Shown here piece by piece: positions 6,091 through 18,708 of a DNA stretch of 64,000 nt. Source of the stretch: Candidatus Omnitrophota bacterium. Lineage in GTDB: Bacteria > Omnitrophota > Gorgyraeia > JABMRN01 > RBG-13-46-9. The stretch's first letter is position 1. Each line of letters starts with the position of its first letter. Under the pieces are notes generated by a model that saw only the letters and a list, made by a program, of their open reading frames with translations, was not told the origin of the DNA and did no database searches. The position numbers were made by a program, and so were the translations under genes. The stretch covers positions 67,100-131,099 of the forward strand of contig JADHYN010000001.1 in the NCBI GenBank assembly GCA_016782425.1. Reading direction: 5' to 3'.

Positions 6091-6118
6091 AGCTTAAAGC
6101 TTATAGCTTACAGCTACT
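6091..6118. repeat. Intergenic 4 x 7-nt array (AGCTTAN)
   Basis: Units are agcttaa agcttat agcttac agctact. On the mRNA strand the array gives TAG/TAA stops in all three frames. Confidence 0.75.
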
Positions 6119-6731
6119 TAGTGGTAAGTGTCGTCTCTCTCCTGCAACGAGCGCAGAGTATCTTGACCCGGTCAGACCGACCAAAGTCTTTCATACAAGA
6201 TATGATATTTTCATCTATAATGCCGAGAGATTTAAGGCGGGAAAGGTAAAGTGTAGGGTTCGAGTAGGTAAGTTCTCCTATTTTCTCGGAAATCCATTTA
6301 AGATGGTCTTTTGTGGCAATTACATCACCGCAAATCTCGCAGAGCGCAAGTTCTTTTTCGATTGTTTCCTGCGCCTGACTCCTATCAAAAAACGAGAGCT
6401 CCCAATCGTTCGAAAGCTTTATTCCCTGATTATCCGCTATACATGCAGCCTCGCACTGTCCGCAAAATATGCAGGTGTCAGTATAGTGTATCATTACGCG
6501 TTTCGGTACTTTGTTTTTATCTATAATATCTTTGTGCGCGATTGCTTCCACCGGGCACACCTCTTCGCATCCTAAGCATCCGACGCAGATTTTCTCGTCG
6601 AACTTTGGCTGGCCCCTGAAATTCGGGTGCGGCACGTGCGGCACCTTGGGAAATTTCGATGTGTACGGGCCCTTTATAAGCGCCTTCACTGCTTCTATAA
6701 TCTCACGTATTTTAGGTAATGGTATTCGCAT
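6114..6731 (-). CDS. 2x[4Fe-4S] ferredoxin subunit of the membrane hydrogenase (NuoI/HycF/MbhN-like) with a C-terminal CxxC..CxxC extension
   Basis: Motifs CVGCLGCEEVCP and CIFCGQCEAAC, plus CEICG..CARC in the tail. Confidence 0.75.
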   Translation of the reverse strand: MRIPLPKIREIIEAVKALIKGPYTSKFPKVPHVPHPNFRGQPKFDEKICVGCLGCEEVCPVEAIAHKDIIDKNKVPKRVMIHYTDTCIFCGQCEAACIADNQGIKLSNDWELSFFDRSQAQETIEKELALCEICGDVIATKDHLKWISEKIGELTYSNPTLYLSRLKSLGIIDENIISCMKDFGRSDRVKILCARCRRETTLTTK

Positions 6732-6744
6732 ATTTCTTTCTTAT

Positions 6745-6772
6745 AGCTTAAAGCTTACAGCCTATAGCTGTT
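6745..6772. repeat. Intergenic 4 x 7-nt array (AGCTTAN)
   Basis: Units are agcttaa agcttac agcctat agctgtt, the same family as 6091-6118 and 47003-47044. Confidence 0.75.
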
Positions 6773-7106
6773 ATAATTCGCCTTCTTTATCTTCTGTGTA
6801 TCGATCCACAACGCTTTCTTTGCAGAGCTTAACTCCTGAACGGTGAGCGCCGCGGGCAATCGCGTGCGCCGCAACCGGCGAGGTGAGAAGAATAAACAGA
6901 ATACAAAGGAGTGCTTTTATGCCTGCTGCACAAAAGCCTACTATTATAAAGGTTCCCATCAATATACTGCAGGTACCCAGGGTAACGCATTTCGTGGCAG
7001 CCTGGAGCCTGTTATACACATCAGGGAGCCGCACAAGGCCCAGGCACCCGAAAACGTCAAACAACAACCCCACGCTTATTAATATTAATCCGATAATATC
7101 ACTCAT
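6771..7106 (-). CDS. MrpG/MnhG-like membrane subunit (MbhC-like)
   Basis: MSDIIGLILISVG..LVRLPDVYNRLQA..AHAIARGA. I chose the start at 7106, which overlaps the upstream stop by 8 nt (stop codon 7099-7101). The longer track ORF (to 7175) adds an implausible Arg-rich extension. Confidence 0.75.
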   Translation of the reverse strand: MSDIIGLILISVGLLFDVFGCLGLVRLPDVYNRLQAATKCVTLGTCSILMGTFIIVGFCAAGIKALLCILFILLTSPVAAHAIARGAHRSGVKLCKESVVDRYTEDKEGEL

Positions 7107-7467
7107 CGAAATCCCTTCCCTCCAGATACTTGGAAAGCGCAAGCGTCGATATAAAACTCTGAAGCGCCCAGGCAATGCCTATATCAATATACCAGGACCT
7201 TCCTGTTGAAATAGTTAATACTGCGCAGAGACCCACGATCATGATTCCTAAAATATCTACGGCGACTATCCTGTCGGCACCCGTCGGTCCCTTCCATATT
7301 CTATAAAGCGTTAGAAAGCATGCAAGAATAATTATGTAAAGCGCCCTTCCTAAAAATCCTACATGCGGAAGATTCTGGTAAAAAAGAAATGGGAACGGCT
7401 TTATTATAATAAGGGATACGATGCCTATCAGTAACGCTGCACCTAAAAACCACCTGATAATCTTCAT
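7099..7467 (-). CDS. MrpF/MnhF-like membrane subunit (MbhB-like)
   Basis: Three predicted TM helices and the GPTGADRIVAVDILG motif. Confidence 0.7.
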   Translation of the reverse strand: MKIIRWFLGAALLIGIVSLIIIKPFPFLFYQNLPHVGFLGRALYIIILACFLTLYRIWKGPTGADRIVAVDILGIMIVGLCAVLTISTGRSWYIDIGIAWALQSFISTLALSKYLEGRDFDE

Positions 7468-7507: not shown

Positions 7508-8005
7508 TTAATCAAAAATTCGCTTTAGTATTTTTTCGAAACGCGCAACAATTATTTTCGTCGCCTCTTCAGTATCTTCGGTCTTGACGTATATCCAGTG
7601 AACATAAAGAACGCTTTTTTTGGTATCTATATCGACGCTCAACGTTCCCGGAGTAAGCGTTATAGAATTCGCCAGAAACGTAAGAGCCGTGTCTGACTTT
7701 AAGATTGTTTTAACCTTCACTATCCCGGGGCGTATCGGAAGCGCCGGATGCGCTACCCTGTAGGCCACTTCTATGTTTGCCTTAATAATCTCCCACAAAA
7801 ATATAGGAACATATTGAAAGAAAAAGTAAAAATACCTTTGGGGGTGCTTGAGGACATGGGGCCTCTGAATGAAAAGATCCCCTGTTAAAAACGCCACCAA
7901 GGCCGCGACGAAAACGCCCACGACCATATGCTGCCAGTCCGGCACCCAGCTTAAAAGGCACCATATAACAAATCCGAGAATAAAAAGAATAATTCTACTT
8001 TTCAT
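7508..8005 (-). CDS. MrpE/MnhE-like membrane subunit (MbhA-like)
   Basis: Two N-terminal TM helices with a soluble tail. Size and position in the Mrp module fit. Confidence 0.65.
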   Translation of the reverse strand: MKSRIILFILGFVIWCLLSWVPDWQHMVVGVFVAALVAFLTGDLFIQRPHVLKHPQRYFYFFFQYVPIFLWEIIKANIEVAYRVAHPALPIRPGIVKVKTILKSDTALTFLANSITLTPGTLSVDIDTKKSVLYVHWIYVKTEDTEEATKIIVARFEKILKRIFD

Positions 8006-8009
8006 ATCT

Positions 8010-9521
8010 TCACATAATAGCCTTGAGAACTACGCTTGCGTAATTTGATCCGTTTGAAATAACATCTACTGCCCTATCGAGAAACATCTCGCGCGCTGTT
8101 GGAATAATTAAAACGCCTCCTATGACGCATATAATGGCCAGGGATATCATGGATATTTTCATGAAAGCCGGGACCCCTTGTATTTTTTCCCATTTCTTTT
8201 TAAGCTCGCCGAAAAACGCGTATTTCATGACTTTCAGGAATGAAGCGAGCGTAAGAACGCTCGCTAAAACAGCCCAGAAGGCATAGCCATATCTTTGGGC
8301 CTGGACTACCGCGATTATAATTATCAGCTTGCTGAAGAACCCGTTAAAAGGAGGTATCCCGGCGATTGCCATGGAGGCAATTAAATTAGTCGTGCCGGTA
8401 ACCGGCATTTTATGAATAAGCCCGCCCATCTCCTTAAGCTGGCGCGTTCCTGTCTCATATTCAATAGCGCCTGAATTTAAAAAGAGAAGCGATTTAAATA
8501 CGGAGTGATTAAAAAGATGAAAAAGCCCTCCCAGTATTCCAAGAGGCGTGCCAAGGCCAAGCCCAAGAATCACGTATCCGATCTGGCTTATCGAGTGATA
8601 CGCGAGCAATCTTTTCAGATCCCACTGTCCGATCGCTAAAAAGACCCCTATCACCATAGAAAGTGCGCCCAAAAACATTAGTATGGATGAGATCTCGGCA
8701 GTTATGCCGAATATATTGTAGAATATCCTGATGAGCGCGTATATGCCGAGCGATTTTATTAAAACCCCTGAAAGCATAGCGGATATCGGCGCGGGTGCTG
8801 AAGGGTGCGCATCCGGAAGCCATGCGTGAAACGGGACAAGGGCGGATTTAAATCCGAACCCCATCAAAAACAGCACGCTTACCATGAGTATGATATTCGC
8901 GCTTTTACCTCCAGCGAGAACACTTGCCATATCCGCCATGTTCAATGTGGAGGTAAAACTGTATAAGAATACTATGCCAAGCAATATAAAAAGTGACGCA
9001 ACGGTTCCCATGACCGCGTATTTGAATGCCGCTTCAAGCTCGTGTTTTTCTGTGCCAAAGGCAACGAGCGCGTAACTCGCCACAGAGGCAATTTCAAGAA
9101 ATACAAACAGGTTGAATATGTCGCCCGTTATCACAACGCCGTTCATTCCCGCCACCATCAAAAGAAACAGAGTGTAGAATTTCCATTTCGAGGTGTAATG
9201 CTCCATATAATTTATCGAGAATACGCAGACGGCGCTCGCGATCAAATTTACGACAACAAGCATGAATACGCTCAATCCGTCCAGGACCATGGCAATTCCT
9301 ATGGGCGCTTTCCACGCGCCTACGCTGTATACAAGCGTGCCATAACTATTTATGGCCCAAACAGCGGCAATAGCCGCCAAAAGCGAACCTAGAGTCGCGA
9401 AAAATCCGAGTAAATCCGGAAGCGCCTTAAAACGCCTCCCGAGGATAGATATTAAAAATGATCCGGTAAGCGGTATCACCACAAAAAGCGGTATTATGTT
9501 TAATGCGGTCGTTTGGGTCAT
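8010..9521 (-). CDS. Antiporter-like subunit, MrpD/NuoN/MbhH family
   Basis: 503-aa polytopic protein with FHAWLPDAHPSAP and SQIGY motifs. Confidence 0.85.
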   Translation of the reverse strand: MTQTTALNIIPLFVVIPLTGSFLISILGRRFKALPDLLGFFATLGSLLAAIAAVWAINSYGTLVYSVGAWKAPIGIAMVLDGLSVFMLVVVNLIASAVCVFSINYMEHYTSKWKFYTLFLLMVAGMNGVVITGDIFNLFVFLEIASVASYALVAFGTEKHELEAAFKYAVMGTVASLFILLGIVFLYSFTSTLNMADMASVLAGGKSANIILMVSVLFLMGFGFKSALVPFHAWLPDAHPSAPAPISAMLSGVLIKSLGIYALIRIFYNIFGITAEISSILMFLGALSMVIGVFLAIGQWDLKRLLAYHSISQIGYVILGLGLGTPLGILGGLFHLFNHSVFKSLLFLNSGAIEYETGTRQLKEMGGLIHKMPVTGTTNLIASMAIAGIPPFNGFFSKLIIIIAVVQAQRYGYAFWAVLASVLTLASFLKVMKYAFFGELKKKWEKIQGVPAFMKISMISLAIICVIGGVLIIPTAREMFLDRAVDVISNGSNYASVVLKAIM

Positions 9522-9856
9522 CCGTTAAGCTCCCGTATCTTGGTTATGTCGAAAGTACCATACTTCTGGTAGATCCGCATGGCTATTCCTATAAGTAACG
9601 CTGTTGTCGCAAGGCCTATAACAATAGACGTAAGGACCACGGCCTGGGGAAGAGCGTCGACCATGTTTTCTATGGCCTGCTCCGGCGAATGTATCGGAGA
9701 GCGGCCGCCTATTTTATAGGCAACAAGAACAAAAAATAGATTCACCGCGTATTCGCAAATTATAATGCCTACTATGATCTTTATTATATTGCGCTTGCGC
9801 AAGACGCAGTAAAGCCCTATCAGAAAAAGCGAGAGACACAAAAGATATAAACTCAT
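9518..9856 (-). CDS. MrpC/NuoK-like membrane subunit (MbhG-like)
   Basis: 112 aa with three TM helices and 4-nt overlaps with both neighbours. Confidence 0.75.
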   Translation of the reverse strand: MSLYLLCLSLFLIGLYCVLRKRNIIKIIVGIIICEYAVNLFFVLVAYKIGGRSPIHSPEQAIENMVDALPQAVVLTSIVIGLATTALLIGIAMRIYQKYGTFDITKIRELNG

Positions 9857-10314
9857 TTCTTATTTTCCTTACTCTCTGTGTCAAATTTTAATAGCACAAG
9901 CGCGACAAATATCGCGAAAAGCCCGGCGCCTACCTTAAGGCCTATCGCTATATTGCAAAGTGGTATGATGCCTGCTGAAAAGAGCCTGAAGGGCTCGCCT
10001 TTCGCTAAAAAATTAATAAAGAAATAACCGCTCGTAAATCCTATAAGCGCTATGCTTAAAAATATAATCGCGCCCATTCCCTCAAAAAGTGACGTTACTC
10101 CGCGTGGAAGCTTCTCGAGCGCTACATCCTTGCCGTAGGCAAGCATGAGATGAACAAACGAAAGCGCCACTATTATACCCCCGGCGAAACCACCGCCCGG
10201 AGAGACATGGCCGTGAGACAGGATATGGATTCCGTAAAGAAATATAAGCCCGACCGTAAGACGGGTAATCGTCTTAACTATAACGCTCATGCCTTTGTCG
10301 TGTTCGCGGCTCAT
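9853..10314 (-). CDS. MnhB-domain membrane subunit (MbhF-like)
   Basis: The HGHVSPGGGFAGG motif is typical of the MnhB/MrpB domain. Confidence 0.65.
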   Translation of the reverse strand: MSREHDKGMSVIVKTITRLTVGLIFLYGIHILSHGHVSPGGGFAGGIIVALSFVHLMLAYGKDVALEKLPRGVTSLFEGMGAIIFLSIALIGFTSGYFFINFLAKGEPFRLFSAGIIPLCNIAIGLKVGAGLFAIFVALVLLKFDTESKENKK

Positions 10315-10316: not shown

Positions 10317-10868
10317 TTAATATTCCTCTTTATCGGATATAGTTTCGTCCGCTCGTTTTCTTCCGATGCGGCGCACAAGCGCCAGAACGCCTATTACAGC
10401 GGTAAAAAGAACAGTCGCTTCTCCTAAAGTATCAAATGCCCTGTAATCGAGAATAACCGACGCAATTATGTTTGCAGCGCCTGTTTTTGGCAGCCCTTCT
10501 TTAAGGTAAGTTTCTGCCACTCTCATGATCGGATAGCCGAATTCCGGAAGATCCTTGAAACATTTATATGCTACGACCAATATTACGCCTATGAAACAAA
10601 CCGCGATGAACGTGTTCAGAACCCACCTGCCGGAAGCAGAAAATGGGAGATCCTTGCGGAGCGTCGCCCGTATTAGAATTATAAGCGCGAGTATTTCGAC
10701 GACAAGCTGGGTAATCGCGACGTCCGGTGCTTTCAAAACAAGAAAAGCTATGGAAAGCACAAGGCCCACGGCACCCAAAGCAACAACAGAAGATAAAAGA
10801 TCTTTTACTTCAACAGCTATTATAGCGCCTATTATCATCGCAATAAGCAAAAGATGCAGGTCAATCAT
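10317..10868 (-). CDS. DUF4040 plus MnhB-N-like membrane subunit (MbhD/E-like fusion)
   Basis: APDVAITQLVVE in the DUF4040-like part, then ILDYRAFDTLGE in the MnhB-like part. Confidence 0.6.
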   Translation of the reverse strand: MIDLHLLLIAMIIGAIIAVEVKDLLSSVVALGAVGLVLSIAFLVLKAPDVAITQLVVEILALIILIRATLRKDLPFSASGRWVLNTFIAVCFIGVILVVAYKCFKDLPEFGYPIMRVAETYLKEGLPKTGAANIIASVILDYRAFDTLGEATVLFTAVIGVLALVRRIGRKRADETISDKEEY

Positions 10869-10872: not shown

Positions 10873-12525
10873 TCACCTTAGCAATATAAAAAATAAAACC
10901 ATCATGCCAAGCAAGCACCAAGCCAGATATGTGGGGAGAACGCCGTTATGAAGGTATCGAAGGAAACCATTGAATCCAAATGTAAGCTTACTGCCTACTT
11001 CATATATGTCAAAGAATTTCTTGTTCGCGAGTTCATATATGAACTTAAGTATCCCTATTTCCTGTATGGTATTATAGAATTCTGTTCCGGAGAGACGCAT
11101 TTCGGGAACATCGCTTACTCTTTCTCCTCCCACGAATATTTCTGTTTCCCTCGGCTTCACGGCTTTTCCTAAAAGATATATAATGATACCTATTATAATA
11201 CCGGCTACTAACAGTATTGTTGCCGGCGCGGCCCACCAGCTACCTATAAAGCTTACAGGTTCTCCTATAGCCGGTAAGATAAACATCTTTAGAGGGACCC
11301 TGTAAACCAGGACGCCGAAGAGAACGCACAAGCCCGCCAGCGTAACCATGGGGATCCACATCGTGGGCCCGACTTCGCGTATTGGGTTCTGTGCGCTACG
11401 CACTTCGTCGAAAGGTTGGCCAAGAAATACCGCATGAATAAGTTTCATGAAACTCGCCAGTGTCAGAGCGCTACCGAACATCGCAGCTACGAGCCATATG
11501 AACCAGAGATGATTGCCATTTTTAGCTGTTTCAATAATACCCTGGTAAATCATCCATTTTGAAGCAAAGCCATTAAAGGGCGGAACGCCGGATATGGCAA
11601 GAGATGCAATGAGAAAAGCTATAAATGTAATAGGCATCATTTTCGCAAGCCCACCGAGTTTATCAAGATTCGTGGTACCGGTTCTTTTTTCGACAGCTCC
11701 ACCTGATAAGAAAAGGCCGGATTTGTATATCGCGTTATTAAGCATGTGAAAAAGGCCGCCCGCAATTCCTATGGGATTTCCTGTCCCTATTCCAAGCACC
11801 ATGTATCCTACCTGGCTGACCGCGTGATACCCCAGGAGTCTTTTTAAATCATGCTGCACAAGTGCCATCATGACCGCGGCCACGATACTAACGCTTCCTA
11901 TTACCATTAGAAACGTATTCATGGCGAAATTCATCTTAAATATATAAAGGGAGATCCTTGCGAGAAAATAAATACCCAGAAGCTTATCAAGTGACGCCGG
12001 AAGAAATGCTGTAACCGGAGTCGGCGCGTCTTCAGCCGTGTCCGGAACCCATGTGTGAAAAGGCATGGCTCCTGCCTTCGCAAACGCGCCTGCAGCAAGG
12101 CATAGATACGCAAGAATTGCGGCTTTGCTGTTAAGCGCGATATTCAAGCCGTCCATTTTAAAAGTTCCTGTCATCACCCAGATAAGCGCTATACCGAAAA
12201 GCATGAAGGCGTCGGTACCGCCTATTATTATGAAGGCTTTTTTAGCCGTAGCTTGAGTCCTTTTCTTATCTCCGAATCCTATTAAGAGATAAAGAAGAAG
12301 TCCTAAAAATCCCCAGAATATGACAAAAAGTATAAGATTGTTCGCAAAAACAGCCGCCATCGAGACTAAAAGCGTAAGTATTAGATAAAGGTAATAACTG
12401 ATAAGTCTCTTTTCTTTCCGCATGAATCCGAGAGAATAAATTATCGTTATGACAGAAAAAAATACTATGAATATGCTTACAAATATAGATAGGTTATCAA
12501 ATCTAAAAAGCTGATCGATTGTCAT
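10873..12525 (-). CDS. Second antiporter-like subunit, NuoL/MrpA family
   Basis: 550-aa polytopic protein with FHTWVPDTAEDAPTP and SQVGY motifs. Confidence 0.8.
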   Translation of the reverse strand: MTIDQLFRFDNLSIFVSIFIVFFSVITIIYSLGFMRKEKRLISYYLYLILTLLVSMAAVFANNLILFVIFWGFLGLLLYLLIGFGDKKRTQATAKKAFIIIGGTDAFMLFGIALIWVMTGTFKMDGLNIALNSKAAILAYLCLAAGAFAKAGAMPFHTWVPDTAEDAPTPVTAFLPASLDKLLGIYFLARISLYIFKMNFAMNTFLMVIGSVSIVAAVMMALVQHDLKRLLGYHAVSQVGYMVLGIGTGNPIGIAGGLFHMLNNAIYKSGLFLSGGAVEKRTGTTNLDKLGGLAKMMPITFIAFLIASLAISGVPPFNGFASKWMIYQGIIETAKNGNHLWFIWLVAAMFGSALTLASFMKLIHAVFLGQPFDEVRSAQNPIREVGPTMWIPMVTLAGLCVLFGVLVYRVPLKMFILPAIGEPVSFIGSWWAAPATILLVAGIIIGIIIYLLGKAVKPRETEIFVGGERVSDVPEMRLSGTEFYNTIQEIGILKFIYELANKKFFDIYEVGSKLTFGFNGFLRYLHNGVLPTYLAWCLLGMMVLFFILLR

Positions 12526-12538: not shown

Positions 12539-13717
12539 TTACCGCTTACCCCTTAGCTTTTCTGTCTTCTCCTGCGAAAGTTTTACTAAATCCTCGCCGG
12601 TATATAATTTCTTTCCTTTTATATTGCGCACAGCCATCCTCTCCGTGCAGCAATAGCAAGGATCTATCGCGGCAAGAATTATTGTCGCATCCGATATCGT
12701 TTCTCCCACAACGGTCGCTTTATATGTAGGCAAATTCATGAATGTTGGCGCTCTTACTTTGTGACGCGCAGGCCTGTTTGTGCCGTCAGAACGAACGTAA
12801 TGAAACGTCTCGCCTCTAGGAGCCTCGATATGTCCTATCCCTTCTCCGGGCGGAATGCTTTTTAGGTTGAGGTCTATTTCACCTTTCGGCAAATTCAGGA
12901 GACAGTGCTTCATTATTTTTACCGCCTCAAACATTTCAAGCACTCTTACGATAACCTTATCAAAAACATCGCCGTTCTGCGTTACTATCATATCCCACTC
13001 TACTGCATCGTAAGCTCCGTACGACGAGTCTTTTCTCACGTCTCTTGCAACGCCTGAAGCCCTGGAAGTGGGCCCGAGAGCCGAATAGTTTAGGGCCTCT
13101 TCTTTGGTTAAAACGCCTATTCCTTTCGTGCGGGCGTGAAGAACAGGATCATCTATTACGGCTTTTTTAAGCATATTAAGAGTTGGTACGATAGAATCTA
13201 TTTTTTTAATACACCCTGGTATGTCTTCGGATTTAATATCGCGCCTTACCCCACCCGGCTTAAACATAGCGTAGTTGTTTCTGTTGCCGGAAAGAATTTC
13301 CATTACATCCAGAATTTCTTCCCTCAACTTCCAAGCCCACATATAAACCGTATTATACCCCAGGAAATGCCCGGCAAGGCCGAGCCACAAAAGATGAGAA
13401 TGAATTCTCTCACCTTCGGCTATTATGGTCCGTATGTACTTGGCCCTCTCGGGAACCTCAACCGGTATTATGTCCTCGACGGCTCTGGTATAAGCAAACG
13501 GATGGCTCGTAGAGCAAATCCCGCATATTCTTTCTATGACAAAGGTTGACTGATCGAACGTCTTCATCTCTGAAAGTTTCTCTATGCCACGGTGGTTGTA
13601 CCCCACGCGGACGTCTATATCCACAACTCTCTCACCCTCAACGGTAAGAGTAAAAAATTCCGGCTCTTCCTGCAGCGGATGATACGGGCCTATTGGTACT
13701 ATTGTTCGTTTACTCAT
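12539..13717 (-). CDS. Group 4 membrane-bound [NiFe]-hydrogenase large subunit (NuoD/MbhL/HycE-like)
   Basis: N-terminal RICGICSTSH and C-terminal DPCYCCTER motifs mean all four Ni-ligand Cys are present. A 32-aa tail follows the R. Confidence 0.9.
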   Translation of the reverse strand: MSKRTIVPIGPYHPLQEEPEFFTLTVEGERVVDIDVRVGYNHRGIEKLSEMKTFDQSTFVIERICGICSTSHPFAYTRAVEDIIPVEVPERAKYIRTIIAEGERIHSHLLWLGLAGHFLGYNTVYMWAWKLREEILDVMEILSGNRNNYAMFKPGGVRRDIKSEDIPGCIKKIDSIVPTLNMLKKAVIDDPVLHARTKGIGVLTKEEALNYSALGPTSRASGVARDVRKDSSYGAYDAVEWDMIVTQNGDVFDKVIVRVLEMFEAVKIMKHCLLNLPKGEIDLNLKSIPPGEGIGHIEAPRGETFHYVRSDGTNRPARHKVRAPTFMNLPTYKATVVGETISDATIILAAIDPCYCCTERMAVRNIKGKKLYTGEDLVKLSQEKTEKLRGKR

Positions 13718-13784: not shown

Positions 13785-14258
13785 TCATACTCCTCTATCT
13801 CGTATTGCCTTCTTATCCCATTCCTTATAGTCGCACCGCAACGGGTACACACCTTCCGGCCATTGGTCCGGCAAAAGAAGCCGTCTCAAATCCGGGTGGC
13901 CCTTGAAATTGATTCCCAAAAGCTCATACATCTCACGCTCGATCCAGTTCGCCGCCTCAAAAAGCGGCGCGAGAGAATCGATTTCAGGCTTAACTTTATC
14001 GAGTTTTACCTTGAACGAAATAAGTAAATTTATATCTTCGATAGTAAAATGATATAAAATTTCTATGGCACTTCTTGTATCCACCCCTGACGCAATATTG
14101 AACCGCGCGCAAAGTTCCCTGAATATATATTCAGAAACAATGCGGATCGATTCCGGTTTGATTTCGATATAAACTCTCTTCGGAGATTTATCGAATACTT
14201 CTAGTATGTCGCTTTTAAAGCGCTCTTTTATATCTTTTAAGATTTCGCTGCGCGTCAT
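13785..14258 (-). CDS. NuoC/MbhK-like 30-kDa subunit
   Basis: [27 protein letters not shown] motif, 157 aa. Confidence 0.8.
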
Positions 14259-14680
14259 GCGTTTCCTTTCAACTTCTCGATCAACTTTACTGCTCCCGCA
14301 ATGATCGCCTCTGGCTTAGGCGGGCATCCCGGGATATACGCGTCTACCGGTATGATCTTATCTAAAGGCACCGGACAATTATAACTTTGCATAAACATGC
14401 CTCTTGACATGGCGCATTCACCTATTGCGACTACGAGGCACGGCTTCGGCGCCTGCTCATACAATCTTTTCATCCTTGTAACCGACTGCCTGTTACATGA
14501 GCCGGTTACTAAAAGAACATCCGCATGCTTTATGCTGCCGGCGAGAATCATGCCGAAGCGCTCAATGTCAAATCTCGGCGTAAGGCAATCCAGGATCTCT
14601 ATGTCGCAGTTATTGCAGCTTCCCGTCGAGAGGTGAAAAACCCACGGAGATTTAAGCAGTGCTTTAAGCTTAAGGCTCAT
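14255..14680 (-). CDS. Hydrogenase small subunit, NuoB/MbhJ-like
   Basis: Cys ligand pattern CNNC..GSC..GECA..IPGCPP for the proximal [4Fe-4S] cluster. Confidence 0.85.
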
Positions 14681-14683: not shown

Positions 14684-15607
14684 TTATAATCCTTTAAATG
14701 CTAATATGACCGCTATAATTGCCAGGATCGTAACCGGCCCCCAGAAAAATCTGACCGCCTGGTCTATTCGTACCCTCGGATTTGTATTTCTTATAACCGT
14801 TATAATAGCTACAAGACCCACATATTTTAACACGCCGTACAATAAATGTATACCGTCGGTCCTTAGTCCTCCCATGAAAATTATCATGAGAAAAAATGGC
14901 AACACGAAAAGCAACATGTTCTTCATGAGTTTATACACGGCGAGCGGCGTTCCCGAATATTCTATCAGCACCCCGCCTGCAATCTCTGTTTCAGCTTCAG
15001 GCATATCAAAAGGAACAAGTGCCAGTTTTGCCTGCACGCAAAGGATAGCCACGATAAGCGCCAAAGCGCCTGATAAACTTCCTGCAAAAACACCGTTTGA
15101 GGCCTGATAAGTTAATAGACTTCCGATTCTAATGGAAAAACCCGAGTGTATAACCGGCACGAGCACTGCAAGGACAAAAGGAAGTTCGTAGCTTAAAACA
15201 AGCTTCATTTCTCTTGAGGCTCCTATGCTCGCTAAAGGGTTGCTCGAAGCAAATCCGCCCATGATAATACTTATAGAAGGAATTGTTAAAACATAGAGCA
15301 CGACTATGAGGTCTCCCAAAAAAGTATTTTGTGTGTTTATATTGTTCATCCAGAGAATTGTCGAAACAAGCATGACGCTTGCCAGGCCAAAAAGTGGCGC
15401 ACCTAAAAAAGCTGCTTTCGACGCTCCTCGGGGAACGAGCGTTTCTTTGCCTAAAAGTTTTACGATGTCGATTAACGGCTGCAAAACCGGCGGCCCGACC
15501 CTGTATTGAACCCTGGCCGTGACCTTTCTGTCAATCCAGCTCGCCACAAGCCCGATCACCGCCGTTAAGAAAAAACCATATAAGATAAAATAAAGTAAAT
15601 AAATCAT
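14684..15607 (-). CDS. NuoH/MbhM/HycD-like membrane subunit
   Basis: Polytopic protein with RKVTARVQYRVGP and ETEIAGG motifs. I chose the start at 15607 (MIYLLYF) because the longer track ORF runs into a repeat element. Confidence 0.85.
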   Translation of the reverse strand: MIYLLYFILYGFFLTAVIGLVASWIDRKVTARVQYRVGPPVLQPLIDIVKLLGKETLVPRGASKAAFLGAPLFGLASVMLVSTILWMNNINTQNTFLGDLIVVLYVLTIPSISIIMGGFASSNPLASIGASREMKLVLSYELPFVLAVLVPVIHSGFSIRIGSLLTYQASNGVFAGSLSGALALIVAILCVQAKLALVPFDMPEAETEIAGGVLIEYSGTPLAVYKLMKNMLLFVLPFFLMIIFMGGLRTDGIHLLYGVLKYVGLVAIITVIRNTNPRVRIDQAVRFFWGPVTILAIIAVILAFKGL

Positions 15608-15617
15608 CACTGGTCTC

Positions 15618-15709
15618 GTTCCGATAGACGATAGACGATCGTGCCCTGCGGGCACTCGGACGATAGACGATTCGTCCTTTCGTACTTTCGTCCTTTCGTC
15701 CTTCGTAGC
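15618..15709. repeat. Palindromic intergenic element, family 1 (GTTCCGA..TCGTCCTTTCG), copy a
   Basis: gttccgatagacga .. cgtgccctgcgggcactcg .. tcgtcctttcgtactttcgtcctttcgtcc. Related to 22793-22889, 36877-36991 and 37800-37915. Confidence 0.65.
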
Positions 15710-15716
15710 TTAGTTT

Positions 15717-16232
15717 TCACGCTCGTTCCCTGTCCCAGTGTGTCGAATGCACTATTAAGTTGTCTCCCACCAGAAACGTGTTTTCACCTAATTCAACATC
15801 TCCTTTTTTTAAACTCAAGGCCCCGTAAGGGCAGCTCTTTATGCAAAGAGGCTCATTATTTTCTTTTCTTCTATCCAGGCATAAATCGCAACTACTGACT
15901 AAAAACGGCACCAGTTCCGGATAAATCGTTCCGTAAGGACATGCATGAGAACATGACTTACAGCTAATACAACGCATGTTGTGCCTTACGAGCAGCTTAT
16001 CTTTTTCTTTGTCCTGCTCGAGCGCGTCTTTCGGGCACGCATTAACACAATGCGCCTCCTCGCACTTCCTGCATACCAGAACATAGGTAGCGAGTTCCGC
16101 TATGGAAATTATTCCGTTATTGCCCGGAGTCTGCGTGTGATAAAAATAGCTGCATTTTATCTCGCACTTTTTACATTCGCCGGTAGCGCATGCGTCGAGA
16201 TCAATATAAAGCCTATCGTTACTTGTGCCCAT
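15717..16232 (-). CDS. Poly-[4Fe-4S] ferredoxin (HycB/CooF-like)
   Basis: Four Cys clusters, including CRKCEEAHCVNACP, CISCKSCSHACP and CDLC..CIKSCP. Confidence 0.75.
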   Translation of the reverse strand: MGTSNDRLYIDLDACATGECKKCEIKCSYFYHTQTPGNNGIISIAELATYVLVCRKCEEAHCVNACPKDALEQDKEKDKLLVRHNMRCISCKSCSHACPYGTIYPELVPFLVSSCDLCLDRRKENNEPLCIKSCPYGALSLKKGDVELGENTFLVGDNLIVHSTHWDRERA

Positions 16233-16235
16233 CTT

Positions 16236-17054
16236 TTAATCCCAAATCTCGTGGTAATTTTTTATCTGGCTATACTTAAATACCGGGCCATCCTTGCAGG
16301 CATAATATATGCCTATCCTGCAGTGCCCGCACTTACCTATCCCGCAGGACATATTTTTTTCCATCGAAAGATATATATTTTCATCCTGAAACCCCATGTC
16401 AAGAAGCTTCATGGTAGCATATTTCATAGCTATAGGCGGACCGCAGACAATTCCGATTCCGTTTTTGCAGTCCATACTAATGCCGTCCATTATGGTTGTA
16501 ACAACACCGACGTTTTCCTTCCAAGTCGGGTCACCCTTGTCGACGGTAAGCCGCATATCCACGCTTTTATGCTCTTTTTTCCACTCGTTTATTTCTTTTT
16601 TGTAAAGAAAGTCCTGCGGCGTTTTGCACCCGCCCCTGTAGATAACTTTCTTAAAATCACCTATATTCTCGAAAAGCTCGTACATGAGCGCCCTTAAAGG
16701 AGCAAGTCCGCATCCGCCGCCTACTACAAGGATTTCTTTGTTCCTAAAATCCTCCAAGGGGTAGCCTTTTCCGAGAGGACCCCTTAAGCCCACAGTGTCA
16801 CCCTTCTTAAGTTCGTGTATCTTTTCAGTAACCTTGCCTACTTTCATGACAGTTACTTCCATCATGTCCTTAACAGACGACCTCGAAGAAGGTGTAAACG
16901 GCGCTTCGCCGACGCCCGGAACGGTTAACTCTATAAACTGGCCCGCGCGAAATTCTATGGGTTCGACCGGTTTTAGCCGTAACGTCTTTATGTTGGACGT
17001 TTCCGTGATTACGTCGAGAACCTCTGTTTTTATGGGCCTGTAAGGATTATTCAC
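16236..17054 (-). CDS. FAD/NAD(P)-binding plus [2Fe-2S] oxidoreductase, sulfhydrogenase gamma (HydG)/AsrB/PyrK-like
   Basis: RAGQFIEL, GPLGKG and VVGGGCGLAPL motifs, plus the C-terminal CGIGKCGHCRIG. Confidence 0.8.
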   Translation of the reverse strand: MNNPYRPIKTEVLDVITETSNIKTLRLKPVEPIEFRAGQFIELTVPGVGEAPFTPSSRSSVKDMMEVTVMKVGKVTEKIHELKKGDTVGLRGPLGKGYPLEDFRNKEILVVGGGCGLAPLRALMYELFENIGDFKKVIYRGGCKTPQDFLYKKEINEWKKEHKSVDMRLTVDKGDPTWKENVGVVTTIMDGISMDCKNGIGIVCGPPIAMKYATMKLLDMGFQDENIYLSMEKNMSCGIGKCGHCRIGIYYACKDGPVFKYSQIKNYHEIWD

Positions 17055-18072
17055 CTTTGACCAGCCTTTTTAATACTTTTCGTATATCGATTTTAGCGGG
17101 GCACGCTGTAATACAGCGGCCGCAGCCGGTACATGCGTAAAAATCAGCCACTTTCGGGAAATAGTAGAATTTTTTCTCGAACCTGTTTCGAAGGCGCATC
17201 CAAAGCTTCGCCCTGGGGTTGGCGCCGCCCGCAACGCGCGCGAAATCCTTTATCATGCAGGAATCCCAGATTCTGAGACGGGCTAAATTTTCCTTATTTT
17301 TTTCATCGTAGAGAAGGAAGCAGTGGCACGTGGGACAGACAGTATTGCACGCGCCGCATTCAACGCACGCTCTTGCCTCATCCTTCCATATATCTGATTC
17401 AAAATTTTTCTCGATTATGCCCTTGAGGCTCTCCTGGCGCGGGACATTGTTTTCTTTTATGTTGCGTTCAACATCTTTTGTAACTTTTTTTCGTTGTTCG
17501 TCTTTTTGCGACTTAGCTCGGGTTTTTACACTTTCAAAAAGGTTTGCATGCGCATCAATAGTAGCCTTACCTTTTTCCGAACCGGTTTCCGCTATAAAAC
17601 CGCCTTCAACAGAAGAAAGGTTAATATCAAAATCTTTCTCAGGGTACGGGGTTACGCCTACAGCAAGGCAAAAACACGTATCTATCGCCGAGGTGCAGTC
17701 AGCGCTGATAATAAGGTTATTTTCTCTATTTCGTATATAAAACGGGTCCTTGTAGTCATGATTTAAAAACACATGGTCCTGAACCTTGAACCCCTTAAGA
17801 TCGCAGGCCTTTACCCCTACGATAGCGAGAGGCTTCTTATTCATTTGCGGAGAAGTATTTTTAAAGCCTTCCGCCACTATCTCTCTTGCGTGACTAAAAA
17901 ACGCCTTTGCCGGCTCAAAGGCCCTTACTTCACCTATTATTATATCTTCTCTTGGCGTGTCGTACTTTTTGTAAAACCTTTGTTTGTCCTTTTTTACGGG
18001 CACAAATACGTTAAAAGTATTTTTTAATTTGTCTAAAAATTTAAAAAAATTGTCGTTTGAGATATAGTGCAA
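17047..18072 (-). CDS. Fe-S subunit, sulfhydrogenase beta (HydB)/AsrA-like
   Basis: CVECGACNTVCPTCHCF and CTGCGRCITACP motifs, 341 aa, overlapping the HydG-like gene by 8 nt. Confidence 0.72.
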   Translation of the reverse strand: MHYISNDNFFKFLDKLKNTFNVFVPVKKDKQRFYKKYDTPREDIIIGEVRAFEPAKAFFSHAREIVAEGFKNTSPQMNKKPLAIVGVKACDLKGFKVQDHVFLNHDYKDPFYIRNRENNLIISADCTSAIDTCFCLAVGVTPYPEKDFDINLSSVEGGFIAETGSEKGKATIDAHANLFESVKTRAKSQKDEQRKKVTKDVERNIKENNVPRQESLKGIIEKNFESDIWKDEARACVECGACNTVCPTCHCFLLYDEKNKENLARLRIWDSCMIKDFARVAGGANPRAKLWMRLRNRFEKKFYYFPKVADFYACTGCGRCITACPAKIDIRKVLKRLVKGE

Positions 18073-18078
18073 AGCGTC

Positions 18079-18708
18079 CTACCTCTTATTGGCCAAAAAA
18101 TAAGAGAGCGTCTCGAGCTCTCTTGATAAATCTACGTTTTTTATTTTAACGTTTTCCGGCACGGAAATTGAAGCGGGGGCAAAATTTAAAATGCACTCCA
18201 CGCCTGATGACACCAGTTTATCCGCAACGCCTTGAGCGCTCTCAGCCGGAACCGCCACCACGCCTATGGTCACTTTTTTATCCTTTATATTTTTTAAGAT
18301 CTCTGAAATGTTTTGGATCGTCACGTTGCTTATTTTCTTTCCGATTTTTTTATCTTCCGAGTCAAATGCCGCGACCATGTTCAGGTTGTGCGTCTTGAAT
18401 CCCGGGTACGTAAGAAGCGCTGACCCCAGGTGCCCGGCCCCCACTACAGCTACGTTCCAGACCTTGTTTTTACCAAGTATTTTCTCAAGGGCGGTTTTAA
18501 GTTCTTCCGTATCATACCCGGCGCCACTTGTCCCGAATTGCCCCACGTGCCCCAGGTCTTTTCTCACCTGCACGTCGCTTAAGTTTACCCTTTCCCCGAG
18601 CTCTGCCGACGAGATTGTCCGGATATTCATGCCGCAAAGGACTACAATCTCCCTCAAATATAAAAAGAGCCTTGAAACAGTGCTTTCGGGAATTTTTTTA
18701 TTGCTCAT
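18079..18708 (-). CDS. rex: Redox-sensing transcriptional repressor Rex
   Basis: N-terminal IPESTVSRLFLYLR winged helix and the Rossmann motif VAVVGAGHLGSAL. Confidence 0.85.
   Translation of the reverse strand: MSNKKIPESTVSRLFLYLREIVVLCGMNIRTISSAELGERVNLSDVQVRKDLGHVGQFGTSGAGYDTEELKTALEKILGKNKVWNVAVVGAGHLGSALLTYPGFKTHNLNMVAAFDSEDKKIGKKISNVTIQNISEILKNIKDKKVTIGVVAVPAESAQGVADKLVSSGVECILNFAPASISVPENVKIKNVDLSRELETLSYFLANKR

What the first reader, a model, noticed from the sequence alone, without database searches (positions are those of the whole stretch)
6114..18708. Mrp/Mbh-type group 4 [NiFe] hydrogenase genetically fused to a HydB/HydG-like NAD(P)H module and Rex
Seventeen tightly packed genes, many overlapping, lie on one strand. 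In transcription order they are:
1. rex;
2. an AsrA/HydB-like Fe-S protein;
3. a HydG/AsrB-like FAD-NAD(P)-[2Fe-2S] protein;
4. a poly-ferredoxin;
5. NuoH-, NuoB- and NuoC-like subunits and the [NiFe] large subunit;
6. a NuoL-like subunit;
7. four small Mrp-type subunits;
8. an MrpD-like subunit;
9. MrpE, MrpF and MrpG;
10. a NuoI-like ferredoxin.

Membrane-bound group 4 hydrogenases (Mbh, Ech) are known as ferredoxin-dependent, while HydB/HydG are the NAD(P)H-side subunits of soluble group 3b sulfhydrogenases.

Finding the beta/gamma-like pair and a Rex NADH sensor at the head of an Mbh-like operon suggests an ion-translocating complex. It may link NAD(P)(H), possibly together with ferredoxin, to H2. 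That would be a complex-I-like machine with a non-NuoEFG input module.

The gene order differs from Pyrococcus mbhA-N. Two antiporter-like subunits are present, as in Mbs/Mbx, yet the large subunit keeps all four Ni cysteines.
Basis: partly seen in the sequence, partly recalled or inferred. Interest (0 to 1): 0.72.

Follow-up and report, generated by a model that had tools for sequence, protein, structure and literature searches.

The report
Hun-type membrane hydrogenase operon with Rex
The 17 genes are a real, tightly packed operon for a membrane-bound nickel-iron hydrogenase joined to a sodium/proton antiporter and a flavin/NAD(P)-binding electron module. This architecture has already been published as the "Hun" complex and is widespread in anaerobic bacteria, but its electron donor (NAD(P)H or ferredoxin) has never been tested.

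Summary
**Observation: confirmed.** Window 18708..6114 (minus strand) encodes rex followed by 16 genes:
- HydB/AsrA-like, HydG/AsrB-like and a four-cluster ferredoxin;
- NuoH, NuoB, NuoC and a [NiFe] large subunit;
- a full MrpA–G-like set;
- a HycF/NuoI-like ferredoxin.

hycI and hypA, F', C, D, E follow.

**Not new.** This is the "Hun" Ni-Fe hydrogenase–Na+/H+ antiporter supercomplex (hunA–P, bioRxiv 10.1101/536078). That paper lists Omnitrophica among its hosts. The window has the published CGIC…CYCC large-subunit signature. The same architecture was earlier called "enigmatic" or "Mbh-Mrp-oxidoreductase type".

**Linkage is conserved.** All 80 closest HydB-like genes among 185,579 species genomes sit at the head of such a cluster. 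54 of 54 evaluable loci carry the group 4 large subunit, across more than 12 phyla.

**Interpretation: partly supported.**
- FAD, NAD(P) and [2Fe-2S] residues of the HydG-like subunit are ≥95% conserved.
- Canonical Rex operators are about 300-fold enriched upstream of these operons.
- In Kosmotoga olearia, RNA-seq places the HydBG-like genes in one transcription unit with the hydrogenase core.

No biochemistry exists, and the published prediction is ferredoxin. My best reading, at about 0.5, is a reversible, ion-coupled NAD(P)H:H+ oxidoreductase. Interest is moderate.

The parts
18712..18760 (-). Promoter-like site (-35 TTGACT at 18760-18755, -10 TACAAA at 18737-18732) overlapped by two degenerate Rex-operator-like boxes (18750-18733 CCGTGAAAAATGGTACAA; 18729-18712 TCGTGAAGAACGGAACGA).
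   Evidence: Sequence read. The boxes sit at the same distance from the rex start as the double Rex boxes of relatives L004, L012 and L013 (1-2 mismatches there, 4 each here).
18079..18708 (-). rex, the redox-sensing (NADH/NAD+) transcriptional repressor. It ends 6 nt before hunA.
   Evidence: Pfam Put_DNA-bind_N + CoA_binding. NCBIfam Rex: 249 bits against a cut-off of 126.
17047..18072 (-). hunA: HydB/AsrA-like Fe-S subunit, with 15 conserved Cys.
   Evidence: Fer4_22, E = 2e-31. PDB 9nez_B, E = 3.5e-44, full length. Below the ShyB, HydB and AsrA cut-offs. Cysteines conserved in 78 relatives.
16236..17054 (-). hunB: HydG/AsrB-like subunit with FAD, NAD(P) and [2Fe-2S] sites.
   Evidence: FAD_binding_6 + NAD_binding_1 + DHODB_Fe-S_bind. 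PDB 9nez_C, E = 3.4e-51. Cofactor motifs ≥95% conserved in 76 sequences. Position 144 is always R or K.
15717..16232 (-). hunC: CooF/HycB-type ferredoxin with four Cys4 motifs; proposed electron wire.
   Evidence: Fer4_11. PDB neighbours are polyferredoxin wires: AOR AorA (8c0z_C), HDCR HycB3/4 and FHL HycB.
15608..15716 (-). 109-nt structured spacer between hunC and hunD. It is a copy of a REP-like intergenic repeat, not a terminator/promoter pair.
   Evidence: Fold z = -2.6, with no T-tract. Other copies lie at 22814-22894, 25857-25916, 36928-37003 and 37815-37927. In relatives the two genes overlap by 4 nt.
14684..15607 (-). hunD: NuoH/MbhM-like membrane anchor.
   Evidence: NADHdh, E = 5e-63. 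The 307-aa length matches called genes in L001, L084 and L086.
14255..14680 (-). hunE: NuoB-like small subunit carrying the proximal [4Fe-4S] cluster.
   Evidence: Oxidored_q6. NCBIfam NuoB subfamily: 132 bits against 116.
13785..14258 (-). hunF: NuoC-like subunit.
   Evidence: Complex1_30kDa.
12539..13717 (-). hunG: group 4 [NiFe] large subunit with RICGICSTSH and DPCYCCTER motifs and a 32-aa cleavable tail.
   Evidence: PDB MbhL 6cfw_L, E = 2.9e-89 (42% identity), and HycE 7z0s_E, E = 2e-83. CYCC signature checked.
10873..12525 (-). hunH: MrpA/NuoL-type antiporter-like subunit, which aligns only from about residue 70-80 of its PDB homologues.
   Evidence: Proton_antipo_M. PDB 6cfw_H, E = 8e-55; 7qru_A, E = 6e-48.
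10317..10868 (-). hunI: MbhD+MbhE fusion, corresponding to the C-terminal part of MrpA.
   Evidence: Pfam MbhD + MbhE.
9853..10314 (-). hunJ: MnhB/MrpB-like subunit.
   Evidence: Pfam MnhB.
9518..9856 (-). hunK: NuoK/MrpC-like subunit.
   Evidence: Oxidored_q2.
8010..9521 (-). hunL: MrpD/MbhH-like antiporter subunit.
   Evidence: PDB 7qru_D, E = 1e-85; 6cfw_H, E = 3.5e-85.
7508..8005 (-). hunM: MrpE-like subunit.
   Evidence: MNHE, E = 5e-47.
7099..7467 (-). hunN: MrpF-like subunit.
   Evidence: MrpF_PhaF.
6771..7106 (-). hunO: MrpG-like subunit. The likely start is the ATG at 7106; the ORF extends to 7175.
   Evidence: PhaG_MnhG_YufB. Relatives are 111 aa long.
6114..6731 (-). hunP: HycF/NuoI-like subunit with 2x[4Fe-4S] and a Cys-bearing C-terminal extension.
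   Evidence: Best PDB match is E. coli FHL HycF (7z0s_F, E = 2.7e-14), ahead of Pf MbhN (E = 8.5e-10). NCBIfam best hit is the FHL iron-sulfur subunit.
1915..6082 (-). Maturation genes: hycI 5621-6082, hypA 5386-5628, short hypF (Kae1-like C-terminal part only) 4274-5344, hypC 4081-4302, hypD 2891-3901, hypE 1915-2901.
   Evidence: Pfam results.

Best explanation
**What it is (about 0.95, shown).** rex plus a complete hunA–P operon, in a Candidatus Omnitrophota genome. The operon encodes the published Hun [NiFe] hydrogenase–Mrp antiporter supercomplex, HydDB group 4g.

**How it most likely works (about 0.5, inferred).** It is a reversible, ion-coupled NAD(P)H:H+ oxidoreductase.
1. NAD(P)H is oxidised at the FAD of HunB (HydG-like).
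2. Electrons pass through the HunB [2Fe-2S] cluster and the Fe-S clusters of HunA (HydB-like).
3. They continue along the four clusters of the CooF/HycB-like wire HunC.
4. HunC docks on the HycF-like HunP, as HycB docks on HycF in formate hydrogenlyase.
5. They reach the [NiFe] site of HunG through the NuoB-like cluster.
6. Turnover is coupled through NuoH to a complete MrpA–G-type module that moves H+/Na+.

The NAD(P)H/H2 couple is close to equilibrium at environmental H2. Direction therefore depends on pH2, the nucleotide ratio and the ion gradient.

Rex de-represses the operon when NADH/NAD+ rises. This points to a role as a reductant valve (H2 evolution) in this fermenter or acetogen. H2 uptake to NAD(P)H, feeding the Wood-Ljungdahl genes 20 kb away, is the reverse mode.
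For: **Identity**
- Gene content and order match hunA–P.
- The large subunit carries the CGIC…CYCC signature.
- The large subunit is 85-92% identical to Omnitrophota proteins.

**Module belongs to the enzyme**
- All 80 best HydB relatives in the species-genome collection head such a cluster. Counts were 66/66 with hydG and nuoH, and 54/54 with the large subunit.
- Junctions overlap: the median hydB–hydG gap is -1 nt, and ferredoxin–nuoH overlaps by 4 nt in called genes.
- Starting instead from the large subunit, three independent long contigs show the same head.
- The K. olearia RNA-seq transcription unit Kole_0568–0575 joins the large subunit, NuoC, NuoB, NuoH, the Fe-S protein, the FAD/NAD(P) protein and the second Fe-S protein. 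Their RPKM values co-vary.

**A nucleotide site is under selection**
- GQF, PFTPSS, GGGxGxAP, CGPP and the four [2Fe-2S] cysteines are ≥95% conserved in 76 sequences from more than 12 phyla.
- The closest solved homologue is the NADPH-binding gamma subunit of sulfhydrogenase I.

**Wiring logic**
- HunP is closest to HycF, and HunC belongs to the HycB/CooF wire class.

**Redox control**
- Rex boxes with ≤1 mismatch occur 23 times in 19 kb upstream of these operons, against 4 times in 1.1 Mb of background.
- 24 of 74 loci carry a box with ≤2 mismatches.
- rex is fused to the operon head in the window.
Against: - No enzyme assay exists for any member.
- The paper that named Hun predicts ferredoxin as the donor via HunABC. 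Others call the module's function unknown.
- Rex also controls ferredoxin-dependent hydrogenases in other bacteria (my own knowledge), so Rex is not specific evidence for NADH use.
- Rex senses NADH. The HunB residues at the end of the second beta strand (R/K144, T/S145, K/R152) look like a 2'-phosphate (NADPH) site. That reading is inference only.
- The window's own Rex boxes are degenerate, with 4 mismatches each.
- NAD(P)H to H2 is endergonic under standard conditions, so ion pumping in that direction needs very low H2.
- Some relatives insert a molybdopterin subunit between hunB and hunC (L065, L078). NAD(P)H therefore need not be the only partner.
- No interface was modelled.
Confidence: 0.5

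Rival explanations
1. Ferredoxin-dependent Hun, as published. Reduced ferredoxin donates to HunA/HunC, and electrons flow to the [NiFe] site for H2 evolution coupled to H+/Na+ export. The FAD/NAD(P) domain of HunB is structural or serves only a minor side reaction.
For: - This is the prediction of the paper that named the complex. It is also the default assignment of HydDB group 4g and of the Omnitrophota/Auribacterota genome papers.
- The large subunit is closest to ferredoxin-dependent P. furiosus MbhL.
- Fd to H2 is exergonic enough to pump ions.
- The window encodes ferredoxin-linked CODH/ACS.
Against: - It does not explain why an FNR-type FAD/NAD(P) domain with intact motifs is kept in 76 of 76 sequences across more than 12 phyla.
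- The closest solved homologues of HunA and HunB are the NADPH-side subunits of sulfhydrogenase I.
- The ferredoxin argument rested on an analogy to AsrAB. AsrB itself is an NAD(P)-binding flavoprotein (family names).
- Mbh, Ech and FHL cores accept ferredoxin or their partners without such a module.
Confidence: 0.25
2. Dual-partner enzyme. Ferredoxin and NAD(P)(H) both connect to the same Fe-S chain. The complex then acts as a combined hydrogenase and ion-coupled Fd:NAD(P)+ oxidoreductase, in the manner of Rnf or Mbx. It could also co-oxidise Fd and NAD(P)H to make H2. Variants add a molybdopterin (formate-type) input.
For: - The long chain of about ten Fe-S clusters has several solvent-exposed ferredoxin-like domains.
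- MopB-containing variants show that the module accepts additional catalytic partners.
- A paralogous hydBG pair sits beside Mo-cofactor and FdhD genes in L019.
- Hosts are often Rnf-containing predicted acetogens, and CODH/ACS lies in the window.
Against: - No second flavin or bifurcation-type site is detectable. HunB is a simple FNR/PyrK-type flavoprotein.
- Nothing in the sequence identifies a ferredoxin docking site.
Confidence: 0.15
3. HunABC is an independent soluble oxidoreductase, for example an NAD(P)H:sulfite, polysulfide or ferredoxin reductase. On this view it is only co-transcribed with a conventional Mbh-Mrp hydrogenase.
For: - Best NCBIfam names include AsrA/AsrB and the sulfhydrogenase beta/gamma subunits.
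- The sulfhydrogenase beta subunit has been linked to S0 reduction (my own knowledge).
- A TauE sulfite-exporter-family gene lies nearby on the other strand.
Against: - There is no AsrC or siroheme subunit, and no group 3 hydrogenase subunits, in this cluster or in 54 related ones.
- Scores fall below all equivalog cut-offs.
- Synteny is invariant and stop/start codons overlap across phyla.
- HunP is of the HycF type, which in FHL carries a docked HycB-like wire.
Confidence: 0.05

Closest known systems
Hun Ni-Fe hydrogenase–Na+/H+ antiporter supercomplex (hunA–P; Glass et al., bioRxiv 10.1101/536078). Equivalent to the 'Mbh-Mrp-oxidoreductase type' (Méheust et al., 10.1101/765248) and the 'enigmatic' Saganbacteria hydrogenase (Matheus Carnevali et al., PMC6349859).
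   Same: - The same 16 genes in the same order.
- An AsrAB-like pair without AsrC.
- An Fe-S protein between that pair and NuoH.
- An Mrp-like module.
- The CGIC…CYCC motifs in the large subunit.
- The host phylum, Omnitrophica, is listed in the paper.
   Different: - rex is fused to the operon head here. Rex is not mentioned in that paper.
- A REP-like 109-nt spacer lies between hunC and hunD.
- This copy has no molybdopterin insert.
Pyrococcus furiosus membrane-bound hydrogenase Mbh (PDB 6cfw; HydDB group 4d).
   Same: - Homologous NuoH, NuoB, NuoC, large-subunit and NuoI core (large subunit 42% identical).
- Mrp-derived membrane arm.
- All four Ni cysteines and a maturation protease.
   Different: - Gene order is rearranged.
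- There are two antiporter-like subunits (MrpA-type and MrpD-type) instead of one.
- Three extra subunits are present: HunA, HunB and HunC.
- The NuoI-like subunit is closer to HycF than to MbhN.
- Mbh uses ferredoxin directly.
E. coli formate hydrogenlyase (PDB 7z0s; group 4a).
   Same: A soluble input enzyme is wired to the HycF-type subunit through a HycB-type polyferredoxin. HunP's best solved match is HycF. The large subunit matches HycE at E = 2e-83.
   Different: - The input module is a HydBG-type flavoprotein pair, not FdhH.
- The membrane arm is a full Mrp set rather than HycC/HycD.
P. furiosus sulfhydrogenase I (group 3b; PDB 9nez).
   Same: The beta and gamma subunits are the closest solved homologues of HunA and HunB. 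They match over full length with all cofactor ligands.
   Different: - Catalytic partners are group 4 membrane subunits, not the soluble alpha/delta pair.
- HunA and HunB score far below the HydB, HydG, ShyB and ShyC equivalog cut-offs.
Respiratory complex I.
   Same: An L-shaped modular design is implied: an NAD(P)H-side flavoprotein, an Fe-S chain, the NuoB/C/D/H/I core and antiporter-like pumps.
   Different: - There is no NuoEFG.
- The flavoprotein is FNR/PyrK-type with FAD, not NuoF with FMN.
- The acceptor is H+ at a [NiFe] site, not quinone.

Membership tests
Hun supercomplex (hunA–P) | 16-gene operon in the order AsrA-like, AsrB-like, Fe-S protein, NuoH, NuoB, NuoC, large subunit, Mrp-like subunits, NuoI-like. 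| tested here: met
   Searches compared with the description. The same order is seen in L001, L084 and L086.
Hun supercomplex (hunA–P) | Large-subunit metal-site motifs CGIC … CYCC, where other group 4 enzymes have CxxC. | tested here: met
   RICGICSTSH and DPCYCCTER in the window. 55 of 59 large subunits in related loci have C-x-C-C.
Hun supercomplex (hunA–P) | AsrAB-like pair without the catalytic AsrC. | tested here: met
   No NIR_SIR or siroheme domain protein occurs among the 17 genes or their flanks.
HydDB [NiFe] group 4g | Assignment of the large subunit by the HydDB classifier. | not testable with these tools
   The assignment rests on two indirect links. HunG was classed 4g. The large subunit in the Tritonobacter lacicola locus L068, which is Mrp-linked like the group 4g Mbh reported for that MAG, is 67% identical to the window's.
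Mbh of Thermococcales (group 4d) | 14-gene mbhA–N order, a single antiporter-like subunit (MbhH), and no separate oxidoreductase module. | tested here: not met
   Two antiporter-like subunits, three extra subunits and a different order. The mbhA–N order itself is taken from my own knowledge.
Group 3b sulfhydrogenase (HydABDG/ShyABCD) | Beta and gamma subunits reaching equivalog score, together with a group 3 alpha/delta pair. | tested here: not met
   HunA: ShyB 194 bits against 690, HydB 162 against 750. HunB: HydG 179 against 650, ShyC 171 against 600. The large subunit is of Complex1_49kDa type.
Anaerobic sulfite reductase AsrABC | AsrA and AsrB at equivalog score, plus AsrC. | tested here: not met
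   AsrA 137 bits against 323; AsrB 237 against 289; AsrC absent.
Formate hydrogenlyase (group 4a) | A FdhH-type molybdopterin formate dehydrogenase feeding HycB and HycF. | tested here: not met
   The window cluster has no molybdopterin protein. HycB-like and HycF-like subunits are present. Some relatives (L065, L078) do carry a MopB gene.
Rex regulon | Rex protein plus the TTGTGA-N6-TCACAA operator at the promoter. | tested here: inconclusive
   The protein criterion is met. The window's boxes have 4 mismatches each but are positionally homologous to good boxes in relatives. Across loci the operator is strongly enriched. Binding was not tested.
Functional [NiFe] hydrogenase (as opposed to Mbx, Mbs or Ehr) | Four Ni/Fe cysteines, a cleavable C-terminal tail, an endopeptidase and hyp genes. 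| tested here: met
   hypB was not seen in the window, and hypF is a short form.

The most novel reading that the evidence does not exclude
Hun is an ion-translocating NAD(P)H-linked [NiFe] hydrogenase. It would be a complex-I-like machine whose N-module is a sulfhydrogenase-type HydBG flavoprotein pair plus a CooF-like wire.

It occurs in more than 12 anaerobic phyla. It would let cells exchange NAD(P)H, H2 and the Na+/H+ gradient directly. That means NAD(P)H-driven H2 release at low H2, or energy-conserving H2 uptake to NAD(P)H in acetogen-like Omnitrophota, all under Rex control.
Probability: 0.45. Interest if true: 0.7.

Novelty: already known. Interest (0 to 1): 0.4.

Why it matters
**What is open.** No energy-converting (group 4) hydrogenase has been shown to use a pyridine nucleotide. 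How anaerobes dispose of NADH as H2, or obtain NAD(P)H from H2 with energy conservation, is usually explained by soluble bifurcating enzymes.

**What it would change.** If Hun couples NAD(P)H to H2 and to an ion gradient, the energy budgets drawn for many uncultured subsurface phyla would change. These include Omnitrophota, Atribacterota, Fermentibacterota and Aerophobota. It would also be a second, independent solution to the N-module of complex I.

**How the question becomes testable.** Cultured carriers exist: Kosmotoga olearia and Desulfosarcina variabilis.

**Status of this window.** The cluster itself is an ordinary copy of a published architecture.

Tried and rejected
- **Terminator/promoter split** between the HydBG-like genes and the membrane genes. 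The scan found nothing convincing. The one sizeable gap (109 nt, hunC–hunD) folds well but has no T-tract. It is a copy of an intergenic repeat found at four other intra-operon gaps.
- **Canonical Rex box in the window.** A search with up to 3 mismatches gave only chance-level hits. The degenerate boxes were recognised only by comparison with relatives.
- **Wide alignment of 39 HydB-like proteins** for the genome scan.
- **Gene fusions as Rosetta-stone evidence.** The long HydB-like representatives P0157 and P0172 are fused to response-regulator or histidine-kinase domains, not to hydrogenase parts. They are uninformative here.
- **Rfam.** No RNA family was found in the window.
- **Literature.** Papers on Thermodesulfovibrio, Caldithrix and Moorella, and a review of complex-I-like enzymes, describe other hydrogenases or do not mention this module. 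Pereira et al. 2011 is not held in the library.
- **Multimer docking.** It was not attempted. The structure tool takes single chains from the window only, and a linker-fused construct without a paired alignment would not give a trustworthy interface.
- **NADH versus NADPH.** Only a suggestive residue pattern was obtained.

Full report
**1. What is in the window**

The minus strand from 18708 to 6114 carries 17 consecutive ORFs. Pfam assigns them as follows:
- Rex;
- a Fer4_22 protein (HydB/AsrA-like);
- a protein with FAD_binding_6, NAD_binding_1 and DHODB_Fe-S_bind domains (HydG/AsrB-like);
- a Fer4_11 ferredoxin with four Cys4 motifs;
- NuoH, NuoB and NuoC;
- a large subunit with both Complex1_49kDa and NiFeSe_Hases domains;
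- a NuoL-type antiporter-like protein;
- a MbhD+MbhE fusion, then MnhB and NuoK/MrpC;
- an MrpD-type antiporter-like protein;
- MnhE, MrpF and MnhG;
- a 2x[4Fe-4S] NuoI-like protein.

hycI, hypA, a short hypF, hypC, hypD and hypE follow on the same strand.

Three ORFs, not four, lie between the two antiporter-like genes. By comparison with called genes in relatives, nuoH probably starts at 15607 and mnhG at 7106.

**2. The parts are what they seem**

- *HydB- and HydG-like proteins.* They match P. furiosus sulfhydrogenase I beta and gamma over their full length, with all cysteine, FAD and NAD(P) motifs aligned (9nez_B, E = 3.5e-44; 9nez_C, E = 3.4e-51).
- *Large subunit.* It is closest to P. 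furiosus MbhL (E = 2.9e-89, 42% identity) and to E. coli HycE. It has RICGICSTSH and DPCYCCTER and a 32-residue tail like the one HycI removes from HycE.
- *Antiporter-like proteins.* The 503-aa protein is MrpD/MbhH-like. The 550-aa protein is MrpA/NuoL-like.
- *Gene order.* From the NuoL-like gene to MnhG it follows the canonical mrpABCDEFG order. The operon therefore reads as three blocks plus a final subunit: flavoprotein/Fe-S block, hydrogenase core, complete Mrp block, then the NuoI-like subunit.
- *NuoI-like subunit.* It is closer to E. coli HycF (E = 2.7e-14) than to MbhN (E = 8.5e-10).
- *Four-cluster ferredoxin.* It belongs to the HycB/CooF/AorA class of inter-module wires.

**3. Is the junction real?**

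No terminator/promoter pair separates the HydBG-like genes from the membrane genes.

The only notable gap is 109 nt between the ferredoxin and nuoH. It folds stably (z = -2.6) but lacks a T-tract. It is one copy of a short repeat that also fills four other intra-operon gaps in the window. In relatives the two genes overlap by 4 nt.

rex ends 6 nt before the HydB-like gene. That leaves no room for a separate promoter outside the rex coding sequence.

**4. Conservation elsewhere**

The large subunit has more than 120 cluster representatives at 85-92% identity. Every source name that identifies an organism is Candidatus Omnitrophota.

A scan of one genome per GTDB species with a HydB-like alignment gave 551 confirmed relatives. 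I kept the best 80, at 38-74% identity. tblastn of the window's proteins against these loci gave:

| Feature downstream of the HydB-like gene | Loci with it / evaluable loci |
|---|---|
| hydG-like and nuoH | 66 / 66 |
| Group 4 large subunit | 54 / 54 |
| Antiporter-like genes | 40 / 43 |

The three exceptions are L022 and Spirochaetota locus L031, whose antiporter-like genes lie upstream on the opposite strand, and one Auribacterota locus (L074) with none.

Record titles span Omnitrophota, Nitrospirota, Spirochaetota, Elusimicrobia, Hydrogenedentota, Fermentibacteria, Aegiribacteria, Aerophobetes, Auribacterota, Latescibacterota, Eisenbacteria, Sumerlaeota, Atribacterota and Clostridia. They also include the cultured Desulfosarcina variabilis.

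Starting from the large subunit instead, every contig long enough shows the same head. The pair is therefore a dedicated orthologous group of this hydrogenase. It scores below all NCBIfam equivalog cut-offs for AsrA/B and for sulfhydrogenase beta/gamma. No AsrC or group 3 subunits are present.

**5. It is already described**

- *Matheus Carnevali et al. 2019.* They reported an "enigmatic" group 4 hydrogenase, closest to Zixibacteria and Omnitrophica sequences, with Mrp-like subunits, cooF-like, asrA-like and asrB-like genes. They proposed that these form an oxidoreductase module with a role like NuoE/F.
- *Méheust et al. 2020.* They named an "Mbh-Mrp-oxidoreductase type" with unknown oxidoreductase function, found in predicted acetogens.
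- *Glass et al. (bioRxiv 10.1101/536078).* They named the 16-subunit complex Hun (hunA–P). Their account covers four points:
  - The hosts are Atribacteria, Firmicutes, Omnitrophica, Elusimicrobia, Bacteroidetes and cultured Kosmotoga.
  - HunG is classed as HydDB 4g, with a distinctive CGIC…CYCC motif.
  - Some MAGs carry a molybdopterin insert between hunB and hunC.
  - The predicted donor is ferredoxin.

The window matches on gene order and on the CYCC motif. 55 of 59 large subunits in my loci share that motif. I also recovered the molybdopterin variant in L065, and L078 has a similar-sized hydG–ferredoxin gap.

HydDB lists 4g as "undetermined role". Omnitrophota genome papers simply call it an Mrp-linked, ferredoxin-dependent Mbh.

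**6. What bears on the NAD(P)H idea**

In favour:
- The FAD, NAD(P) and [2Fe-2S] residues of the HydG-like subunit are ≥95% conserved in 76 sequences from many phyla. That is hard to reconcile with a purely ferredoxin-fed chain.
- The closest solved relatives are the NADPH-side subunits of sulfhydrogenase I.
- The HycF-type terminal subunit plus a HycB-type wire reproduces the way formate hydrogenlyase attaches a soluble input enzyme.
- Canonical Rex operators (TTGTGA-N6-TCACAA, ≤1 mismatch) occur 23 times in 19 kb upstream of these operons, against 4 times in 1.1 Mb of the remaining locus sequence. 24 of 74 loci have a box with ≤2 mismatches.
- In the window, rex is the first gene. Two degenerate boxes overlap a TTGACT-17-TACAAA promoter at positions homologous to good double boxes in close relatives.
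- In K. olearia, RNA-seq transcription units join Kole_0568–0575: large subunit, NuoC, NuoB, NuoH, Fe-S protein, FAD/NAD(P) protein and Fe-S protein. Their expression co-varies across temperatures.

Against, or unresolved:
- There is no biochemistry for any member.
- Rex also governs ferredoxin-dependent hydrogenases elsewhere (my own knowledge).
- The residues after the second strand of the nucleotide domain (R/K144, T/S145, K/R152, Y151) resemble a 2'-phosphate site. They hint at NADPH, whereas Rex reads NADH (inference only).
- Molybdopterin variants show that other partners can join.
- NAD(P)H to H2 is uphill under standard conditions.

**7. Most likely mechanism**

I take Hun to be a reversible NAD(P)H:H+ oxidoreductase coupled to H+/Na+ movement through the Mrp block.

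The electron path I propose is FAD, then [2Fe-2S] (HunB), the HunA clusters, the four HunC clusters, the two HunP clusters, the HunE cluster, and finally [NiFe].

What is shown: the subunit set, the cofactor ligands, the conserved linkage, co-transcription in one cultured relative, and Rex operators.

What is inferred: physical docking, the donor, direction and ion coupling.

At the H2 levels of anoxic sediments (about 1-100 Pa) the H+/H2 couple lies near or above the NAD(P)H couple. The reaction is then near equilibrium, and the membrane arm could either harvest or supply the difference. This is my own calculation from standard potentials.

The window also carries CODH, an intein-containing AcsB, AcsD and RACo 20-30 kb away. 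Hun-type enzymes were noted in predicted acetogens. H2 uptake is therefore a credible reverse mode.

I put this model at about 0.5, the published ferredoxin model at 0.25, a dual-partner model at 0.15, and an independent soluble HunABC enzyme at 0.05.

**8. Verdict**

- The object is a standard copy of a known, named but biochemically uncharacterised complex.
- What this analysis adds:
  - a quantitative linkage survey;
  - the Rex-operator enrichment;
  - the HycF/HycB wiring analogy;
  - the conserved nucleotide-site residues;
  - a second cultured carrier, D. variabilis.
- Novelty: already known. Interest: moderate (0.4), because the donor question is open and can now be tested in culture.

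Noticed in passing
window 15633-15714, 22814-22894, 25857-25916, 36928-37003, 37815-37927: A family of short purine-rich repeats (GGACGAAAG units plus small hairpins, read on the coding strand). Most copies fill gaps between consecutive same-strand genes; the 25857-25916 copy lies within the predicted 5' end of the rubrerythrin ORF. It resembles REP/BIME-type intercistronic elements. One copy makes up the hunC–hunD spacer.
   Followed up: partly
window 6071-6115, 6718-6762, 46983-47027: A second small repeat (AGCTTAAAGCTTAYAGCT-like) lies immediately upstream of the start codons of hycI, the NuoI-like gene and acsB. Its function is unknown.
   Followed up: no
window 43182-46979 (-): The acetyl-CoA synthase beta subunit (AcsB/CdhC) is 1265 aa long. 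An intein with a LAGLIDADG homing-endonuclease domain is inserted at about residues 513-1045.
   Followed up: no
window 39754-50738 (-): Wood-Ljungdahl carbonyl-branch cluster: CODH (48807-50738), a probable CooF, an FAD/NAD oxidoreductase (47027-48406), AcsB, AcsD (41772-43109) and the corrinoid activator RACo (39754-41682). It suggests an acetogen-like host.
   Followed up: partly
window 4274-5344 (-): hypF encodes only the Kae1-like C-terminal half (356 aa). No acylphosphatase, zinc-finger or YrdC part was seen, and no hypB was seen in the window.
   Followed up: no
window 51327-61913 (-): A giant 3528-aa ORF with almost no Pfam matches (weak L-PSP and FkbO-like N-terminal hits). It contains three 99-nt tandem repeats at 56179-56475.
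   Followed up: no
window 18102-18124 (-): A terminator-like hairpin (8 bp followed by a T6 run) lies inside the last codons of rex, about 30 nt before hunA. The stem is not conserved in relative L020. It could attenuate read-through or be coincidental.
   Followed up: partly
L065 9135-10973, L065 11510-12259, L074 12267-13022, and L078: Variant Hun loci. L065 carries a 612-aa molybdopterin oxidoreductase between hunB and hunC, and L078 has a similar-sized gap there. L065 and L074 each carry a TPR protein (in L065 between hunC and nuoH, in L074 between hunB and hunC).
   Followed up: partly
L019 52-1970: The same Omnitrophota single-cell genome has a paralogous HydBG-like pair (31-36% identical). 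It lies next to MobA, FdhD, a molybdate-type ABC transporter, MoeA and MoaA. The module may also serve a formate-dehydrogenase-type enzyme.
   Followed up: partly
L022, L024, L031, L044: In the Spirochaetota loci L024, L031 and L044 the Mrp-like genes are transcribed divergently upstream of hunA. hunP and hycI follow the large subunit directly. L022, a bin with no phylum in its record title, shows the same downstream arrangement.
   Followed up: no
Kosmotoga olearia Kole_0567 (PMC5674127, supplementary file 3): In the cultured carrier K. olearia, the gene between the large subunit and NuoK is annotated as a pseudogene. RNA-seq splits the cluster into two transcription units at that point.
   Followed up: no
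window 18823-19999 (+): An Rrf2-family regulator and a TauE/SafE sulfite-exporter-family permease are transcribed divergently from the rex promoter region.
   Followed up: no
L001 18305-19606: In a related Omnitrophota genome a 433-aa HypC–radical SAM fusion follows hypA. rex lies downstream of the operon rather than upstream.
   Followed up: no
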